A program made the position numbers and the translations under genes. Positions 1 to 5,857 of a DNA stretch of 5,857 bases are shown here, piece by piece; the first letter of the stretch is position 1, and each line of letters begins with the position of its first letter. This DNA comes from a virus. Lineage: Duplodnaviria; Heunggongvirae; Uroviricota; Caudoviricetes. The stretch lies in IMG/VR virus record IMGVR_UViG_2700989508_000011; one strand, written 5' to 3'. A model generated the notes under the pieces. The model made no database searches. It saw nothing but the letters and a program-made list of their open reading frames with translations, and was not told the DNA's origin.

Positions 1-2089
1 CATAACTGTTAATTGCCCTGACTGTCAGGGTGTATTCCCCGAGCGGCAGACCACTGAAACGATGCTCTGTATCCGCAGTGATGGCGGTGGTCACCAGACG
101 GCTGTCTTCTCCGCTTCCGCTGGTCAGGCGCAGACTGAAGCGCACACCCTTCACCACCCGCGGCGTGTCCCATTTCGCCTGTGCCAGATACTGACCGTCA
201 GCTGCGCTCACCTCCACCGTCAGGTGCTGCACTGCCGGAGGGATGACGCTGTTCAGGGTGCCTGACTGCGGCTCAAAGCTGGCCCCGTTATCCACGATGG
301 CTTCCTTTTCCGGTACGTGCTGCACCGCCGTGATGGCAAAGGTGCCGTCCGTGTTTTCCCGGATGGAGACACAGCGGAACAGGCGACGACGCAGTGACTG
401 CAGGGAGAGTCCCCATACACCGTATGTCTCCACACCATCAGGCAGGGTGCTGACCTGTATCCGGTCCGGCGCGGGGTGTGCGGTGATGGCCACGCTCACC
501 GGCTTACCGCTGCCGTTAATCAGGTTCACCGTGGCGGCACCTGTCTCCGGCAGGGTCACCTCACGGTCCAGTGTCAGGGTGCGGCTGGCGGCATCAATGG
601 ACAGGACACGTCCGCCGGTCAGGGTCCCGGCATAGTCGTTATCACAGATTTCAATAATGTCACCGGGTGTGTGCCGCAGCCCCTGAGACCCGAGCGTGAA
701 ATCCACCGTCTGCGTTTCCAGCAGTCCGGTCTTTATCACCCACAGTCCGGCACGGTGGGCCTGACCGCGGCTGGTACAGCCGAACGCGTCCATCTTCAGC
801 AGGTTGCGTCCGTAGCGCAGTATGGCTTCCGGGTCTTCCACCAGTTCCGTGGAGGTCTGCCAGCCGTTCTGCGGGTCGGTGTAATTCACCTCCACCGCCG
901 TGTGCCGGTCCTTCAGGGCACTGAAGCTGTAGCGGAATCCCACGCCGTTATCATCCACCACCACATCGCTGTTGGTGTACGGCCACACCACATCCGACGG
1001 GCGGTCCTGAACGAACGTCAGCGTCTGGCCGTTCCATACCGGCATACAGCGCATCGCCGAGCAGAAATCACTGAGAACGTCCCACGCCTTACGCTGTTGT
1101 GACAGGTACGCATTAAAGGTCATCCGCGGCTCTGTGCCCCCGAAACCATCCGGGACCGTCTGGTCGCAGTACTGCCCGATGGCATACAGCGCCCACTTGT
1201 CAACATCCGCCGCCACCAGACGTTTTCCCATGCCGTAGCGCGGGTGAGTCAGCATGTCCCACAGGCACCAGGCCGGGTTGTTGCTGTATGCCGGTTTCAG
1301 GCTGCCGTCCCAGATGCCGCTGTACGTGCGTTTTTCCGGGTCATAGTTTGACGGTACCTGGATGATGCGACCGCGGATATGGTAGTTCACCGTCATCTGC
1401 TGACCGCCAAACTGCTCCGCATCCACCTGCAGCCCCACAATCGCCGTGTTCGGGTAGCACTGTTTCACATCGATGATTTCGGTGTATGACGACCAGAGCG
1501 TCTTATTCTGCAGCTGGTCCGAGGTGCTGTCCGCTGTCTCCCGGACCATCCGGATGTTAAAAGGACGGGGAGGCAGATTACCCAGAATCACCGACGCCAG
1601 AAACTGCGAGGTGGTCTTGCCGTTAATGGTGACATCCTTTTCCGTCACCCAGTTACCGTTACGCTGTAACTGAATCAGCAGTCGGACAGAAGAGGGATTA
1701 CGGTCGCCCTTTGAGGTGGTCTCCAACAGTGACTGCACCCCGAAGGTGACCCGCAGGCGGTCAATGTTCGCGGACGTAATGGTGCGCGTCACCGGCTTTG
1801 CCTTCGTCACTTCCACGCCCAGTGCGGTTTCAGATCCGGAGGACTCAAAGCCTTCCGGTGGTGTCTGCTCCTGCTCCCCGGCACGCCAGACCGCGGTCAC
1901 ACCGTGTATCACGGGATTGCCGTCCGTGTCCGTCAGTGGGGTTTTGTTCACCAGAATACTCTGCAGTCCCTTCACCGGACCTTCTATCGGTCCCTCACCA
2001 ATCGCATCAATCACGCTCATCATCTGCGTGGACTTAAGATTGTCCTTTGCCTCTACCGGCGTGTGCGCCTTGCCGCCACCTTTGCCCAT
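1..2089 (-). CDS. J: Tail tip / host-specificity protein J (central tail fibre), N-terminal ~696 codons; C-terminal receptor-binding part lies beyond the left edge
   Basis: Minus-strand ATG at 2089-2087 (plus 'cat'), preceded by a G-rich SD-like 'aagggtgagaca'. My translation starts MGKGGGKAHTPVEAKDNLKSTQMMSVIDAIGEGPIEGP..., which I recognise as the lambda gpJ N-terminus. At the window start the same frame reads ...RFSGLPLGEYTLTVRAINSY. The track shows no minus-strand ORF ending at 2089, consistent with an open frame to the window edge (the track omits ORFs whose stop lies outside the window). I did not translate every codon. Confidence 0.88.
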   Translation of the reverse strand, partial: MGKGGGKAHTPVEAKDNLKSTQMMSVIDAIGEGPIEGPVKGLQSILVNKTPLTDTDGNPVIHGVTAVWRAGEQEQTPPEGFESSGSETALGVEVTKAKPVTRTITSANIDRLRVTFGVQSLLETTSKGDRNPSSVRLLIQLQRNGNWVTEKDVTINGKTTSQFLASVILGNLPPRPFNIRMVRETADSTSDQLQNKTLWSSYTEIIDVKQCYPNTAIVGLQVDAEQFGGQQMTVNYHIRGRIIQVPSNYDPEKRTYSGIWDGSLKPAYSNNPAWCLWDMLTHPRYGMGKRLVAADVDKWALYAIGQYCDQTVPDGFGGTEPRMTFNAYLSQQRKAWDVLSDFCSAMRCMPVWNGQTLTFVQDRPSDVVWPYTNSDVVVDDNGVGFRYSFSALKDRHTAVEVNYTDPQNGWQTSTELVEDPEAILRYGRNLLKMDAFGCTSRGQAHRAGLWVIKTGLLETQTVDFTLGSQGLRHTPGDIIEICDNDYAGTLTGGRVLSIDAASRTLTLDREVTLPETGAATVNLINGSGKPVSVAITAHPAPDRIQVSTLPDGVETYGVWGLSLQSLRRRLFRCVSIRENTDGTFAITAVQHVPEKEAIVDNGASFEPQSGTLNSVIPPAVQHLTVEVSAADGQYLAQAKWDTPRVVKGVRFSLRLTSGSGEDSRLVTTAITADTEHRFSGLPLGEYTLTVRAINSY

Positions 2090-2121: not shown

Positions 2122-2154
2122 CACAAAAACAACAGGCATCCCGGAGGATGCCTG
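2122..2154 (-). terminator. Rho-independent terminator-like hairpin on the minus strand, 33 bp upstream of the J start
   Basis: Perfect 9-bp GC-rich inverted repeat CAGGCATCC / GGATGCCTG (plus 2133-2154) with a 4-nt loop. On the minus strand it is followed directly by TTGTTTTTGTG (plus 2122-2132). Confidence 0.5.
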
Positions 2155-2192
2155 TATCATCACTGAATAAAAATTCTGAATATCTTCACATT

Positions 2193-2220
2193 TTCACAAA
2201 CTGACTGTGGCGCTAATAAT
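2193..2220 (+). promoter_or_regulatory. Candidate sigma70-like promoter on the plus strand (antisense to the tail operon)
   Basis: TTCACA (2193-2198; 5/6 to TTGACA), 16-bp spacer, AATAAT (2215-2220; 5/6 to TATAAT), in a ~29% GC stretch; predicted start near 2227. Hexamer match only, no experimental support. Confidence 0.25.
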
Positions 2221-2279
2221 TTCTCTGCGTTAATTTTTTTGTCGTGACATAAGAATAATTCTCTATAGTTAATCTTTGT
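2214..2279. repeat. Imperfect direct repeat, two ~26-bp copies with ~38-bp period, in the I-J intergenic island
   Basis: Copy A 2214-2240 'taataatttctctgcgttaattttttt'; copy B 2252-2279 'agaataattctctatagttaatctttgt'. Shared core AATAATT(T)CTCT...GTTAAT. Aligned by eye. Confidence 0.4.
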
Positions 2280-2286
2280 ATCTCTT

Positions 2287-2320
2287 CCCGCAGCTCCGCA
2301 ACTCTGCGGGATTTTTTTAT
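2287..2320 (+). terminator. Rho-independent terminator-like hairpin on the plus strand, abutting the 3' end of gene I
   Basis: Stem CCCGCAG (2287-2293) / CTGCGGG (2304-2310) with a 10-nt loop, followed by A-TTTTTTT-ATTCTTTTT (2311 onward). On the minus strand the same hairpin is followed by 'aagagataca', so it is terminator-like only for rightward transcription. Confidence 0.5.
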
Positions 2321-2325
2321 TCTTT

Positions 2326-3006
2326 TTACCCCTGCCGCCCGATAACCACCACCTTCCCGCCACCACCTTCATCACGGGTGCTGATGTCCTGGGAGATTCG
2401 CCGGGAGCCAACCAGCATTTCACCGTAAGGCACCGGCATCGGGTTCCCCTGGGCAATCATGTTGTCCAGTGACGAAAAATACGTGTTCTGTTTACCGTTA
2501 TCCGTACTTTTGTACTCCGGCGTCTTTGCCTTCGGGGCCAGCATCTGGGCCACACCGCCCAGTATCATGCTGGCCCCCAGTGAAAACAGCATCGTGGTGG
2601 CAGAAAAACCGCCGGCTGCCAGGGCTGAACCCCATAACGCCATCGTTGCGCCGGCGGTGAAGAAAGAGCCCACGATGGCTGCCGCCCCCAGCACAATCTG
2701 CAGTCCGCCTTTCCCTGCACCGGCCAGTCGCGGCACAATGTGGATGACCGTTCCCTCACCCAGCTGTTCGTGAAGACGGGCGTACACCGCCTCCGGTGCC
2801 GTGTCCTCACCGCGAATACGTATCTGGTACCAGCCTTCGTTCATCTGACGGCGGAATCCCGGCACCTGTAACGACAGCGCCCGGATGGCTTCCGCTGCCG
2901 TGTTCACGTACAGGCTGAGGCGGCGGCCAAATCGTTGCAAATCCCCGTGAAGGCAGATGCGTGCCAGTGGCGGTGACGCCAGGCTGAATGCGTTCGTCGT
3001 TGCCAT
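2326..3006 (-). CDS. I: Tail tip assembly protein I (lambda gpI family)
   Basis: 226-aa ORF starting MATTNAFSLASPPLARICLHGDLQRFGRR..., with a Gly/Ala-rich hydrophobic middle and C-terminal ...DEGGGGKVVVIGRQG. I recognise this as lambda gpI (223 aa). Stop TAA at 2328-2326. The start overlaps the 3' end of K by 103 nt in another frame, as I recall for lambda. Confidence 0.9.
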   Translation of the reverse strand: MATTNAFSLASPPLARICLHGDLQRFGRRLSLYVNTAAEAIRALSLQVPGFRRQMNEGWYQIRIRGEDTAPEAVYARLHEQLGEGTVIHIVPRLAGAGKGGLQIVLGAAAIVGSFFTAGATMALWGSALAAGGFSATTMLFSLGASMILGGVAQMLAPKAKTPEYKSTDNGKQNTYFSSLDNMIAQGNPMPVPYGEMLVGSRRISQDISTRDEGGGGKVVVIGRQG

Positions 3007-4351: not shown

Positions 4352-4692
4352 CAGTTCACCACCTGCTCAATCGTACAACTGAAATCACTGTACCTGGCGT
4401 TATCTGTGACGCTCCACTCCCGGCACACCACCCTCACCGTCCGGTTATGTTTCGGCGGTCGCCACAAAAAGGCACGGTAACCACCATGCCAGGATAAAAA
4501 TTCATCCAGCCAGCGCCGGGTTGGTTCATCCGTCACCCGGAACACCGCCTGAAACGTCTTCAGTCTGGCATTAAGTCCCGTCGGTCGGCGCTGTTCATAA
4601 CCGTCACCAAACCGAACCCTCACCACCGACGGTTTCTCACTCACCTGCATCCCTTCACGCGGGACCAGATGCAGCGTTTTTATCTCAGCCAC
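4351..4692 (-). CDS. M: Tail tip protein M (lambda gpM family)
   Basis: 113-aa ORF containing VRFGDGYEQRRPTGLNARLKTF and ending ...FSCTIEQVVN, resembling lambda gpM (109 aa). GTG start at 4692-4690, preceded by a strong SD (GGAGGA, 7-nt spacing) inside the last codons of H; 8-nt overlap with the H stop. Confidence 0.88.
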   Translation of the reverse strand: MAEIKTLHLVPREGMQVSEKPSVVRVRFGDGYEQRRPTGLNARLKTFQAVFRVTDEPTRRWLDEFLSWHGGYRAFLWRPPKHNRTVRVVCREWSVTDNARYSDFSCTIEQVVN

Positions 4693-5857
4693 TCAGCATT
4701 CCTCCGTCACGTCGCATGGACAGCATCACCGCCTGCACCCGCTGGTCAATCAGCTGCACAAGACTGCCTGCCGCCTCCGCCCCTATCTGTCCGTTAGCCC
4801 CGTCATTCTGAATGGCGATGTGGTAGACCGGGGAATACACCAGACCGGCACTGCCGTTCATACTGCCCACCGCGCGTACGCCCAGCGAGCCATCCGCCGC
4901 CCGGGTCAGGGGCATAATGGCTTCAGGTCCGGCTTCCCCCATCAGCCCGGCCCCTTTTGCAAACGCAAAGTACGTGGGCGTGTCCACAATGCTGTTGCTG
5001 TACGCACTCAGGTTTGCCGAGGTATACACGCCGCCTTTTGCATTGGCCACCGCACCGCCCAGCCAGTCACCAATGCTGCCAATAAATCCTCCCGCACCGG
5101 ACATACCGTTTGCCGCCGTCTTAATTCCGTTGACAATCGCGGCATTCATAAGAACTTTTGAGATTTCCTGCAGTACGGATGAGGCCCAGTTGCGCCATTC
5201 CACTTTGTTTCCGTTCAGCATCTCCGTGATGTTATTCACCATCCCTGAGATACCCTCCGTCGCAAGCTGTGCTGCCTGTGAAGCGTAATCGGATGCATTG
5301 TCCACCCAGTTACTGAGCCCCTCCTGCAAGCCTTTCTGCCAGTCCGCACGCTGCGCATCCGATTCGGCATAAAAGGCTGCCTGGTCCTTAAGGCGTTCGC
5401 TCAGATACTGCGCGTTCTGTGCCCGTGCCTGTCTGTAAAAATCCTCACTGATATCCCCGGTCTGATACTGAGACTGAAGGTCCGCATCCTTCTGGCGGAA
5501 GCTGTCGCGGATCTGCTGCAACTCCCGCATGCGTTCCCTGGCTCGTTCTCCCTGCCCGTATCCCAGCAGTTCGGCTTCATTTGATGCACGCGCAGCCACA
5601 TTATCATTCTTCAGGGTCTCTTCCCGGGATCGCAACTGTTCCCGGATTTTTTGCTGGTCAATCAGGGCCGCGTTACGCAGCAGTTCCTGCTTCTGCATCT
5701 CCGTCAGGGTTTTCAGTTCGCCCTGCGCAGTCTGGTACTTCAGCTTCGCCAGCTCTGTATTCTGACCCGCCAGTGCCAGTTGCTCTTTCTGCTGCTTCAG
5801 TAGCCGGGAAAAACTGTCTTCCGCTTTTTCCGTCTCTGATTTTCCACCCCGGGATTT
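4685..5857 (-). CDS. H: Tail tape-measure protein H, C-terminal ~390 codons; N-terminus lies beyond the right edge
   Basis: Frame open from the window edge (5857) to stop TGA at 4687-4685; the track ORF (337 aa from an internal Met) is only the part after the first in-window ATG. The call rests on the Q/E/R/K-rich helical character of the translation and on its position immediately upstream of M-L-K-I-J; H homology itself was not confirmed. Confidence 0.82.
   Translation of the reverse strand, partial: KSRGGKSETEKAEDSFSRLLKQQKEQLALAGQNTELAKLKYQTAQGELKTLTEMQKQELLRNAALIDQQKIREQLRSREETLKNDNVAARASNEAELLGYGQGERARERMRELQQIRDSFRQKDADLQSQYQTGDISEDFYRQARAQNAQYLSERLKDQAAFYAESDAQRADWQKGLQEGLSNWVDNASDYASQAAQLATEGISGMVNNITEMLNGNKVEWRNWASSVLQEISKVLMNAAIVNGIKTAANGMSGAGGFIGSIGDWLGGAVANAKGGVYTSANLSAYSNSIVDTPTYFAFAKGAGLMGEAGPEAIMPLTRAADGSLGVRAVGSMNGSAGLVYSPVYHIAIQNDGANGQIGAEAAGSLVQLIDQRVQAVMLSMRRDGGMLSG

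What the first reader, a model, noticed from the sequence alone, without database searches (positions are those of the whole stretch)
2193..2320. Possible ~90-nt plus-strand small RNA antisense to the tail operon
A sigma70-like promoter (TTCACA-N16-AATAAT, 2193-2220) lies about 60-90 bp upstream of a good intrinsic terminator (GC stem 2287-2310 plus a run of seven T). Together they would give a transcript of roughly 2227-2318, about 92 nt, on the strand opposite the late genes. It would have no ORF and would overlap the 3' end of the I mRNA and the I-J junction, so it could act in cis as an antisense RNA or in trans as a regulatory RNA. This is a purely sequence-based inference.
Basis: inference. 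Interest (0 to 1): 0.55.

Follow-up and report, generated by a model that had tools for sequence, protein, structure and literature searches.

The report
PasB-family prophage small RNA gene

Summary
They lie in a 236-bp spacer between tail genes I and J, on the strand opposite the tail genes.

The spacer is homologous and syntenic to the EPEC E2348/69 locus that expresses PasB. PasB is an 83-nt, Northern-validated, Hfq-dependent sRNA with 37 RIL-seq partners. A covariance model built from ten other alleles hits window 2227-2318(+) at 76 bits (E 7e-15).

By coordinates, the EHEC Sakai RNAs EcOnc22/23/24 (~85 nt, Hfq-CRAC) are the same family.

The window allele is only 73.5% identical to the type PasB and falls outside the published BLAST census criteria. 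It keeps the -10, a 5' U-run, an (ARN)3 block, an invariant UUAAUCUU and the terminator.

The most likely mechanism is a lysogen-expressed, Hfq-dependent, trans-acting base-pairing sRNA carried as an "RNA moron". A cis-antisense role is not excluded but is less likely.

The 5' end is unresolved (about 2227 or about 2240-2243). Targets and function are unknown.

Verdict: a real feature and a new member of a known kind. Interest is moderate to low.

The parts
2227..2318 (+). PasB-family sRNA gene at its maximal extent (92 nt from the TSS predicted for promoter P1). The minimal extent is about 2240/2243-2318 (76-79 nt), taken from homology to the annotated E2348/69 5' end or from the alternative promoter P2.
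   Evidence: Covariance model R1, built without the window clade, hits 2227-2318(+) full length at 76 bits, E 7e-15. Alignment to the E2348/69 PasB locus is. Identity to PasB is 73.5%.
2193..2220 (+). Promoter P1: -35 TTCACA (2193-2198), 16-nt spacer, -10 AATAAT (2215-2220).
   Evidence: The -10 position is conserved as [T/A/G]AT[A/C]AT in all 30 distinct I-J spacers found by an I-protein-based search, and at 84-97% per position in 58 distinct promoters. The -35 is kept only in promoter type A. E2348/69 has TTCACA-N16-TATAAT. The expressed Sakai allele has the same AATAAT.
2231..2236 (+). Alternative -10 (P2), TAATTT, with a predicted TSS near 2242-2244.
   Evidence: The TAnnnT positions are 97%, 97% and 100% conserved in 58 distinct promoters. 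In E2348/69 the equivalent TAGTGT lies 6-7 nt upstream of the published PasB 5' end. This part is retained in the sodC-class loci that have lost P1.
2168..2193 (+). Conserved promoter-upstream box TAAAAATTCTGAATATCTTCACATTT. It contains a CRP-like site, TCTGA-N6-TCACA (2175-2190, centre 2182.5).
   Evidence: The box is present in every PasB-type spacer of the unbiased sample whatever the promoter type, and it is repeated with each cassette in tandem arrays. It is the only match to TGTGA-N6-TCACA with 1 mismatch or fewer in the window, and 16% of shuffles have one or more. Its function is inferred, not shown.
2234..2240 (+). 5' U-run (U7). It follows the invariant GCGUUA (2227-2232).
   Evidence: Invariant or near-invariant columns in 20 alleles.
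2251..2259 (+). A-rich block AAGAAUAAU, which is (A-R-N)x3. It is a candidate contact for the distal face of Hfq.
   Evidence: A2251, A2252, A2255 and A2258 are invariant and A2257 is at least 90% conserved across 20 alleles. The ARN motif rule comes from PMC4104026. Binding is inferred.
2269..2276 (+). Conserved UUAAUCUU, the candidate seed, just upstream of the terminator.
   Evidence: AUCUU is invariant and UUA is at least 90% conserved in 20 alleles whose bodies otherwise differ by up to about 28%. It occurs once in the window. Zhu et al. 2026 place the PasB seed in this position. In the window allele the MFE fold pairs it with the A-rich block.
2286..2318 (+). Rho-independent terminator and Hfq-binding 3' module: stem 2286-2293/2304-2311, 10-nt loop, U7 at 2312-2318.
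   Evidence: The 7-bp core CCCGCAG/CTGCGGG is invariant in 20 alleles while the loop varies in sequence and length from 10 to 16 nt. The reverse complement of the published PasB Northern probe (AGCTCCGCGATCACTGCGGGATT) aligns here.
2122..2155 (-). Intrinsic terminator on the tail-gene strand, between the PasB promoter and J: a 10-bp stem (2155 to 2132) followed by UGUUUUUGUG.
   Evidence: In 11 alleles 98% of cells are paired, with one compensatory pair (C-G to U-A). Seven G-U cells are readable as pairs only on the minus strand, against one on the plus strand. Its role is unknown. It is part of the same inserted module.
2326..3006 (-). Tail assembly gene I (context).
   Evidence: Pfam Lambda_tail_I. 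RefSeq annotation of the identical locus.
1..2089 (-). 5' part of the tail tip gene J (context). The start codon is at 2087-2089.
   Evidence: Translation. Pfam FNIII-A_GpJ, Phage-tail_3 and Ig_J.

Best explanation
Window 2227/2243-2318(+) is a gene for a PasB-family small RNA (PasB of EPEC; EcOnc22/23/24 of EHEC). It is a self-contained 'RNA moron': its own sigma70 promoter, a non-coding body of about 80-92 nt and a Rho-independent terminator. It is inserted between tail genes I and J of a lambda-like prophage and reads against the late operon.

In a lysogen the late genes are silent and the sRNA is made from its own promoter. Hfq binds and stabilises it. The likely contacts are the 3' hairpin with its U7 tail and U-rich upstream stretch, plus the (ARN)3 block. 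The RNA then base-pairs in trans with host and prophage mRNAs, most likely through the invariant UUAAUCUU just 5' of the terminator.

Shown, in homologues only: expression, size, Hfq dependence and many RNA partners. Shown here: homology, synteny, and conservation of the promoter, motifs and terminator. Inferred: expression of this allele, the seed, the Hfq contacts and the targets.
For: Context. The tail genes H, M, L, K, I and J are all on the minus strand. The I-J spacer is 236 bp here but about 50-65 bp in lambda-type relatives.

Homology. The E2348/69 PasB coordinates (NC_011601 1466343..1466261, minus strand) fall in the I-J spacer of prophage PP6, antisense to the tail genes, 5 nt from the I stop. 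That locus aligns with the window across the whole spacer. Model R1 hits the window at 76 bits, E 7e-15.

Expression of homologues. PasB base mean is 482-1082, against 3-15 for the neighbouring tail genes. log2FC in delta-hfq is -6.8 and -2.4. It has 37 RIL-seq partners and sits almost always in the RNA2 (sRNA) position of chimeras. It is Northern-validated.

Sakai. EcOnc22/23/24 peaks lie in the I-J spacers of Sp15, Sp14 and Sp11 on the antisense strand. After the NC_002695.1 to .2 shift calibrated on AgvB (+137 to +146), they fall inside the R1 hits. The Northern band is about 85 nt and is destabilised in delta-hfq.

Conservation. The -10, GCGUUA, the U-run, the ARN block, UUAAUCUU and the terminator stem are invariant or nearly so, while the rest of the body and the terminator loop vary. 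An invariant internal motif is not needed for a purely cis-antisense RNA.

Chance. The promoter-terminator conjunction is rare in shuffles.

Coding. No ORF.
Against: No expression data exist for this allele. It is only 73.5% identical to the type PasB, and blastn with the PasB query aligns only its 3' 39 nt.

The terminator stem never varies, so there is no covariation support for any RNA structure.

In the window allele the predicted MFE fold sequesters the putative seed in an AU-rich hairpin that other alleles do not share.

The published 5' end of PasB lies 22 nt after the TATAAT of P1. So either P1 is not the promoter in use or the RNA is processed.

No function or validated target has been published for PasB or EcOnc22.
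Confidence: 0.8

Rival explanations
1. A cis-acting antisense RNA. Its real job would be to pair with the I-J intercistronic part of the late tail transcript of its own or a co-resident prophage. That could trigger RNase III cleavage or transcriptional interference, and so tune J (tail tip) expression or handicap related phages.
For: The RNA is perfectly complementary to 76-92 nt of the late transcript, by position and strand. Transcription converges on the late operon. Many genomes carry several such prophages, up to 7 places per genome, and Sakai has three identical copies.
Against: It overlaps no coding sequence and no ribosome-binding site. Its 5' end is at least 138 nt from the J start codon and its 3' end is 7 nt past the I stop. 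An invariant internal motif and a conserved ARN block across diverged alleles are unnecessary for a cis-antisense RNA. PasB is abundant and has 37 trans partners while the tail genes are essentially silent.
Confidence: 0.12
2. A decayed or silent copy. The sequence descends from a PasB-type cassette but is no longer expressed or functional in this prophage.
For: The -10 is AATAAT rather than TATAAT. The allele has a 1-nt deletion in the GCGUUAAU-U run and a U for C in the conserved AAUCUUC. Clearly damaged copies exist elsewhere: L035 has a deleted terminator arm, L040 a stem mismatch, and the sodC-class loci lack the P1 promoter.
Against: All recognisable parts are intact here. The expressed Sakai allele uses the same AATAAT. 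The same promoter and 5' variants recur in many independent contigs. Eight complete genomes carry the identical spacer.
Confidence: 0.06
3. A chance promoter next to a terminator that serves only as an insulator. On this view there is no discrete sRNA, and the hairpins merely stop stray transcription around the I-J junction.
For: Counts of promoter-like and terminator-like sites in the window are within chance. A second terminator faces the other way 130 nt away.
Against: The conjunction is rare in shuffles. The homologous loci make a discrete RNA of about 83-85 nt. The promoter elements are conserved.
Confidence: 0.02

Closest known systems
PasB (pathogenicity-associated sRNA B) of EPEC O127:H6 E2348/69, prophage PP6 (Pearl Mizrahi et al. 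2021, PMC8550237; Zhu, Shabalina & Storz 2026, bioRxiv 10.64898/2026.05.13.724894)
   Same: Same slot (I-J spacer), same orientation, and the same -35 TTCACA with a 16-nt spacer. Same conserved upstream box, GCGUUA, U-run, A-rich block and AAUCUU motif. Same terminator core CCCGCAG/CTGCGGG with U7, and the same distance to the I stop.
   Different: Identity is 73.5% over the RNA. The body between the U-run and the seed is largely different (GUCGUGACAUAAGAAUAAUUCUCUAUAG against GCCCGAGUAACAAAAACAACUCCUUCACA). The -10 is AATAAT rather than TATAAT, and the terminator loop differs. blastn with word size 28, as used for the published census, does not find it. With word size 11 only 39 nt align. Expression of this allele has not been shown.
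EcOnc22 / EcOnc23 / EcOnc24 of EHEC O157:H7 Sakai, prophages Sp15 (Stx1), Sp14 and Sp11 (Tree et al. 2014, PMC4104026 Table S2)
   Same: They occupy the I-J spacer, antisense to the tail genes. They have the same -10 AATAAT, box, seed and terminator. They are Hfq-bound, about 85 nt, and destabilised without Hfq.
   Different: The region between the box and the -10 is different (promoter type C) and the body is different, at 79% identity. The equation with PasB is my inference from coordinates after a calibrated shift between assembly versions. I did not find it stated in the papers read (no 'EcOnc' in Zhu et al.; Table S6 of PMC8550237 lists no EHEC homologue for PasB).
AgvB / AsxR anti-sRNAs (Rfam RF02702, RF02703) at the PR' moron site of lambdoid prophages
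   Same: They are short, Hfq-dependent, prophage-encoded sRNAs carried as morons. They have a conserved 3' part and variable 5' part, and contain ARN motifs.
   Different: They sit in a different slot (downstream of PR', not I-J). They show no sequence or Rfam match here. They are shorter, at 51-60 nt. Sponge activity against a core sRNA has not been shown for PasB.
Protein-coding morons in the same slot: prophage sodC (Cu,Zn superoxide dismutase)
   Same: An autonomous transcription unit inserted between I and J and reading against the late operon. Found in 16 of 114 sampled loci and in a Citrobacter prophage.
   Different: The cargo is a protein gene. In the E. coli sodC loci it has replaced the PasB promoter region but left the PasB body and terminator downstream.
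Classical phage cis-antisense RNAs (lambda OOP, P22 sar). These are named from general knowledge and were not tested here.
   Same: Short phage-encoded RNAs transcribed against a phage mRNA.
   Different: Those overlap the coding or translation-initiation region of their target gene. This RNA overlaps only an intercistronic spacer.

Membership tests
PasB / EcOnc22-24 sRNA family | Located in the I-J intergenic spacer of a lambda-like prophage, on the strand opposite the tail genes, with its 3' end next to the I stop codon. | tested here: met
   Window: I stop at 2326-2328, U-run end at 2318, J start at 2087-2089. E2348/69: PasB 3' end is 5 nt from the I stop. 112 of 122 pattern-found copies in IMG/VR are flanked by I and J, and most of the rest are cut by contig ends or lie inside tandem arrays.
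PasB / EcOnc22-24 sRNA family | Sequence homology to the type PasB RNA. | tested here: met
   Model R1, built from E2348/69 PasB plus 9 other alleles and excluding the window clade, hits 2227-2318(+) full length at 76 bits, E 7e-15. The next hit in the window scores 13.6 bits. Global identity is 73.5%.
PasB / EcOnc22-24 sRNA family | A 3' stem-loop followed by poly-U (intrinsic terminator and Hfq-binding module). | tested here: met
   8-bp stem plus U7. The core stem is invariant in 20 alleles, and there is no covariation because nothing varies.
PasB / EcOnc22-24 sRNA family | Own promoter, active in the lysogen. | tested here: inconclusive
   Sequence only. P1 scores 10/12 and has a conserved -10. 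The alternative P2 -10, TAnnnT, is also conserved. Which one is used, and whether it fires in this allele, cannot be told from sequence.
PasB / EcOnc22-24 sRNA family | Expressed as a discrete RNA of about 83-85 nt whose stability depends on Hfq and which forms Hfq-mediated chimeras with mRNAs. | not testable with these tools
   Shown for E2348/69 and Sakai only.
Phage moron (autonomous unit inserted between genes that are adjacent in relatives) | The flanking genes are adjacent in related phages, and the insert carries its own promoter and terminator. | tested here: met
   I-J gaps are about 47-65 bp in 29 lambda-type loci. They are 234-344 bp with the sRNA cassette, and 708-851 bp with sodC.
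AgvB / AsxR anti-sRNA families (Rfam RF02702, RF02703) | A match to the Rfam covariance models. | tested here: not met
   No hit in the window at E of 1 or less. The same search finds AgvB at 96.5 bits in the Sakai control locus.
cis-antisense regulator of a phage gene | Overlaps the coding sequence or translation-initiation region of the target gene. | tested here: not met
   The RNA spans 2227-2318. The J start is at 2089 and the I stop at 2326.
CRP-activated class I promoter (side hypothesis) | A CRP site matching TGTGA-N6-TCACA, centred near -61.5 from the TSS. | tested here: inconclusive
   TCTGA-N6-TCACA matches 9/10 at 2175-2190. The centre is about -60.5 from the P2-predicted TSS but -44.5 from the P1-predicted TSS. 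The TSS is not known. The only biological hint is that PasB is higher in static overnight LB than in DMEM, opposite to Spot 42.

The most novel reading that the evidence does not exclude
The I-J slot of lambda-like prophages may hold a modular sRNA cassette system. A fixed chassis would consist of the upstream box with a CRP-like site, the -10, the GCGUUA-U-run leader, the UUAAUCUU motif and the terminator. That chassis is combined with rapidly exchanged bodies, and in some phages it is multiplied into arrays of 2-4 cassettes that include a second, undescribed body family (…CUCCUUAAGGUGACUAUUCGU… with a CUCCCGU/ACGGGAG terminator).

The window allele would then be one of many specificity variants of a catabolite- or stationary-phase-controlled prophage regulator. 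The PasB family would be much broader than the published census, and it would unite PasB with EcOnc22-24.
Probability: 0.3. Interest if true: 0.55.

Novelty: new member of a known kind. Interest (0 to 1): 0.33.

Why it matters
This case shows that a promoter-plus-terminator inference from raw sequence can recover a genuine Hfq-dependent sRNA that no genome annotation or Rfam model marks. About 30% of complete E. coli genomes carry the spacer, and none of the RefSeq records looked at annotates an RNA there.

For specialists there are four modest additions. First, PasB (EPEC, 2021) and EcOnc22-24 (EHEC, 2014) appear to be one family. Second, that family is far more diverse than the word-size-28 census suggests. 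Third, its promoter carries a conserved CRP-like box. Fourth, the I-J slot can hold arrays of such cassettes, or sodC instead.

The function of PasB is still unknown. The invariant UUAAUCUU and the allele series give concrete handles for finding targets.

Tried and rejected
- Rfam: an E-value scan of the window found nothing in the spacer. PasB has no Rfam family, and the second cassette family has no hit either.
- AgvB/AsxR: I first suspected these. They were rejected on location (the PR' moron site) and on the absence of a model match.
- EcOnc36 (Sp5): checked as a possible further homologue. It lies inside a large ORF of the short-tailed Stx2 phage, so it is not one.
- Covariation for the sRNA: RNAalifold on 20 alleles finds only the invariant terminator stem, which is uninformative. 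The window-specific internal hairpin is not conserved.
- Small ORF: none found.
- Minus-strand promoter that could feed the minus-strand terminator: I found none by eye or in the scan. R1 gives only a weak architectural hit there, at 13.6 bits and E 0.1. No minus-strand Hfq peak is listed in the Sakai I-J spacers.
- Seed complement inside the window: none.
- PasB RIL-seq partners: the table is held only in part and the search tool shows two rows per file, so I could not list them.
- Taxonomic spread: among one-genome-per-species contigs, PasB-type spacers turned up only in Escherichia and in an E. coli-like contig filed under Streptomyces, which is probably contamination. Lambda itself, Shigella flexneri, E. 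ruysiae and Citrobacter relatives lack the cassette.

Full report
**What is in the window.** All long ORFs of the window lie on the minus strand, and they are the distal tail genes of a lambda-like phage. They are the C-terminal part of the tape-measure protein H, then M, L, K (JAB + NlpC/P60), I (2326-3006) and the first 696 codons of J, whose start codon is at 2087-2089. RefSeq annotation of an identical locus agrees. The finding sits in the 236-bp I-J spacer (2090-2325). In lambda-type relatives that spacer is only about 50-65 bp, so the region is an insertion between two genes that are normally adjacent.

**Check of the observation.** The promoter scan finds a single sigma70-like site in the whole window. 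It is TTCACA (2193-2198), N16, AATAAT (2215-2220), 10 of 12 matches, + strand. RNAfold of 2227-2318 gives a terminator with an 8-bp stem (2286-2293/2304-2311), a 10-nt loop and U7 (2312-2318). The MFE is -18.6 kcal/mol, z = -2.6. Site counts alone are within chance. However, a promoter of at least 10/12 followed by a same-strand terminator 40-250 nt away arose in only 3 of 500 shuffles of the window. Any such pair arose in 15 of 2000 shuffles of the spacer. The predicted transcript contains no ORF. The one correction is that the RNA does not overlap the I coding sequence, because it ends 7 nt before the I stop codon.

**Identification.** Rfam has nothing here. The spacer is 88-90% identical to spacers in 149 phage records, mostly Stx1a-, Stx2a- and Stx2c-converting phages. 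It is also present in 1645 of 5426 complete E. coli genomes, 8 of them identical, and the records examined have no RNA annotated there.

The literature search led to PasB. Table S6 of Pearl Mizrahi et al. 2021 (PMC8550237) places it at NC_011601 1466343..1466261 (minus strand), 83 nt, in prophage PP6, with probe AATCCCGCAGTGATCGCGGAGCT. Those coordinates fall in the I-J spacer of PP6, antisense to the tail genes, with the 3' end 5 nt from the I stop. The locus aligns with the window through the whole spacer. It shares the same -35, a TATAAT at the position of the window's AATAAT, and the same terminator core.

I built covariance model R1 from PasB and nine other alleles, deliberately leaving out the window's clade. 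It matches window 2227-2318(+) end to end at 76 bits, E 7e-15.

**What is known experimentally about the homologues.**
- In EPEC, PasB is Northern-validated and is among the most connected accessory sRNAs, with 37 RIL-seq partners. It is almost always the 3' (sRNA) member of chimeras.
- It is strongly Hfq-dependent, with log2FC -6.8 and -2.4 in delta-hfq.
- It is expressed at base mean 482-1082 while the flanking tail genes are at 3-15, so it has its own promoter in the lysogen.
- It is higher in static overnight LB than in exponential DMEM.

Tree et al. 2014 (PMC4104026, Table S2) list EcOnc22, 23 and 24 in Sakai prophages Sp15, Sp14 and Sp11. They are + strand homologues of each other, about 85 nt on Northern blot, and destabilised in delta-hfq. 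All three peaks lie in I-J spacers opposite the tail genes. The paper used NC_002695.1, whereas the collection holds version .2. Calibrating on AgvB (published peak against the Rfam hit) gives a shift of +137 to +146. That shift puts the three peaks inside the R1 hits.

I therefore regard EcOnc22-24 and PasB as one family. I did not find this stated in the papers I read. Targets and function are unknown for both.

**Anatomy and conservation.** I sampled loci through the I protein, which is independent of the spacer sequence, and obtained 114 loci with both I and J.
- Spacers of 234-344 bp all carry the cassette.
- Twenty distinct RNA alleles share GCGUUA, a U-run, an A-rich block with A-A-N periodicity (AAGAAUAAU, 2251-2259 in the window), UUAAUCUU (2269-2276), the stem CCCGCAG/CTGCGGG and the U-tail.
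- The remaining body and the terminator loop differ. The window is 71-95% identical to the other alleles and 73.5% identical to PasB.
- RNAalifold recovers only the terminator, which never varies, so there is no covariation evidence either way.
- The internal hairpin predicted for the window allele is not shared by other alleles.

An invariant 8-mer immediately 5' of the terminator is what a trans-acting seed looks like, and it is where Zhu et al. 2026 put the PasB seed. A purely cis-antisense RNA would not need it.

**Promoter and 5' end.** The published PasB 5' end lies 22 nt after that -10, which is too far.

Sixteen nucleotides downstream there is a second hexamer (P2): TAATTT at 2231-2236, and TAGTGT in E2348/69. 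Its T, A and final T are 97%, 97% and 100% conserved in 58 distinct promoters. It would start transcription at the published 5' end. The sodC-class recombinants keep this part but lack P1. The Sakai size of about 85 nt lies between the two predictions of 91 and 75 nt. The 5' end is therefore about 2227 (P1), or about 2240-2243 (P2 or processing). This is unresolved.

Upstream, a 26-bp box (2168-2193) is conserved in all types and is repeated with every cassette. It contains TCTGA-N6-TCACA, a 9/10 match to the CRP core and the only such site in the window. Its centre is about -60.5 from the P2 start, which is the class I position, but -44.5 from the P1 start. PasB's higher level in LB than in glucose-rich DMEM, opposite to Spot 42, is compatible with CRP activation. 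It is equally compatible with stationary-phase or low-oxygen control. This is a hypothesis only.

**Mechanism.** The best-supported reading is a lysogen-expressed, Hfq-dependent, trans-acting base-pairing sRNA carried as an RNA moron (confidence about 0.8 for family membership and this general mode). The cis-antisense reading is not excluded, because the RNA is perfectly complementary to the I-J part of the late transcript. It is less likely, because no coding or initiation region is covered and the internal motifs are conserved. A silent relic is possible but unsupported: all parts are intact and the same variants recur widely.

**Surroundings.** The same insert carries a second intrinsic terminator on the tail-gene strand (stem 2155 to 2132 plus a U-tract), between the PasB promoter and J. 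It is 98% paired in 11 alleles, with one compensatory pair, and its G-U pairs are readable mostly on the minus strand. I found no promoter or Hfq peak for a minus-strand RNA ending there. It may insulate J from non-antiterminated transcription.

The slot is a moron hot spot. 16 of 114 loci carry sodC in the same orientation, having replaced the PasB promoter but not its body. A few IMG/VR contigs carry arrays of up to four cassettes, including a second body family that is absent from Rfam.

**Novelty and verdict.** The window holds a diverged allele that the published census criteria (blastn with word size 28 and more than 75% query coverage) would miss. I therefore class it as a new member of a known kind and give it moderate-to-low interest. 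The residual interest lies in four things: the unknown function of PasB, the proposed identity with EcOnc22-24, the conserved CRP-like box, and the cassette arrays.

Noticed in passing
window 2122-2155 (minus strand): A conserved intrinsic terminator on the tail-gene strand lies just upstream of J: a 10-bp stem plus UGUUUUUGUG. It shows one compensatory pair, and its G-U pairs favour the minus strand. No transcript that would end there was identified.
   Followed up: partly
window 2168-2193 (+), core 2175-2190: A conserved box, TAAAAATTCTGAATATCTTCACATTT, lies upstream of the sRNA promoter and contains a CRP-like site TCTGA-N6-TCACA (9/10). It is centred about -60.5 from the alternative TSS. 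It is repeated with every cassette in arrays and is shared by a second sRNA body family.
   Followed up: partly
window 2231-2236 (+): A second candidate -10 (TAATTT; TAnnnT is 97%, 97% and 100% conserved).
   Followed up: partly
L006, L008, L018, L024, L025, L048, L056 (I-J spacers of 848-851 bp); L104 (Citrobacter, 708 bp): A Cu,Zn superoxide dismutase gene (sodC, Pfam Sod_Cu) occupies the same I-J slot in the same antisense orientation. In the E. coli phages it replaces the PasB promoter and the minus-strand terminator but leaves the PasB body and terminator downstream of the sodC terminator.
   Followed up: partly
L166 (about 4418-4980, minus), L176 (322-1084, minus), L171 (1-704, plus), L128, L142: Some I-J slots hold tandem arrays of 2-4 sRNA cassettes. 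Each cassette has the upstream box, a -10, the GCGUUA-U-run and a terminator. One cassette type has a different body and terminator (…CUCCUUAAGGUGACUAUUCGU…CUCCCGU-loop-ACGGGAGAUUUUUU) and has no Rfam match.
   Followed up: partly
L120 1637-1727, L121 1168-1258, L122 1218-1308 (Sakai Sp15, Sp14, Sp11): EcOnc22/23/24 of Tree et al. 2014 map to PasB-family genes once the coordinate shift between NC_002695.1 and .2 (+137 to +146, calibrated on AgvB) is applied. The three Sakai copies are identical to each other.
   Followed up: yes
L030, L042 and related loci (I-J spacers of 295-344 bp): These spacers lack the CAGGCAyCC hairpin. Instead they carry about 100 bp of unrelated sequence next to J. In the 342-bp class this includes a different, bidirectional-looking terminator hairpin (AAACCCCGGTATC-agca-GATACCGGGGTTT).
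   Followed up: no
L084 (NZ_JBHTEB010000006.1, filed as Streptomyces flavalbus) and L086-L099 (lambda-like contigs filed under unrelated genera): E. coli prophage or phage lambda sequences appear in assemblies of unrelated organisms on short, low-coverage contigs. This is most likely contamination or a lambda spike-in.
   Followed up: no
L123 528-720 (+) and 721-782 (-): In Sakai Sp10, STnc100 (145.8 bits) and AgvB (96.5 bits) are immediately adjacent and convergent. This was seen while calibrating coordinates.
   Followed up: no
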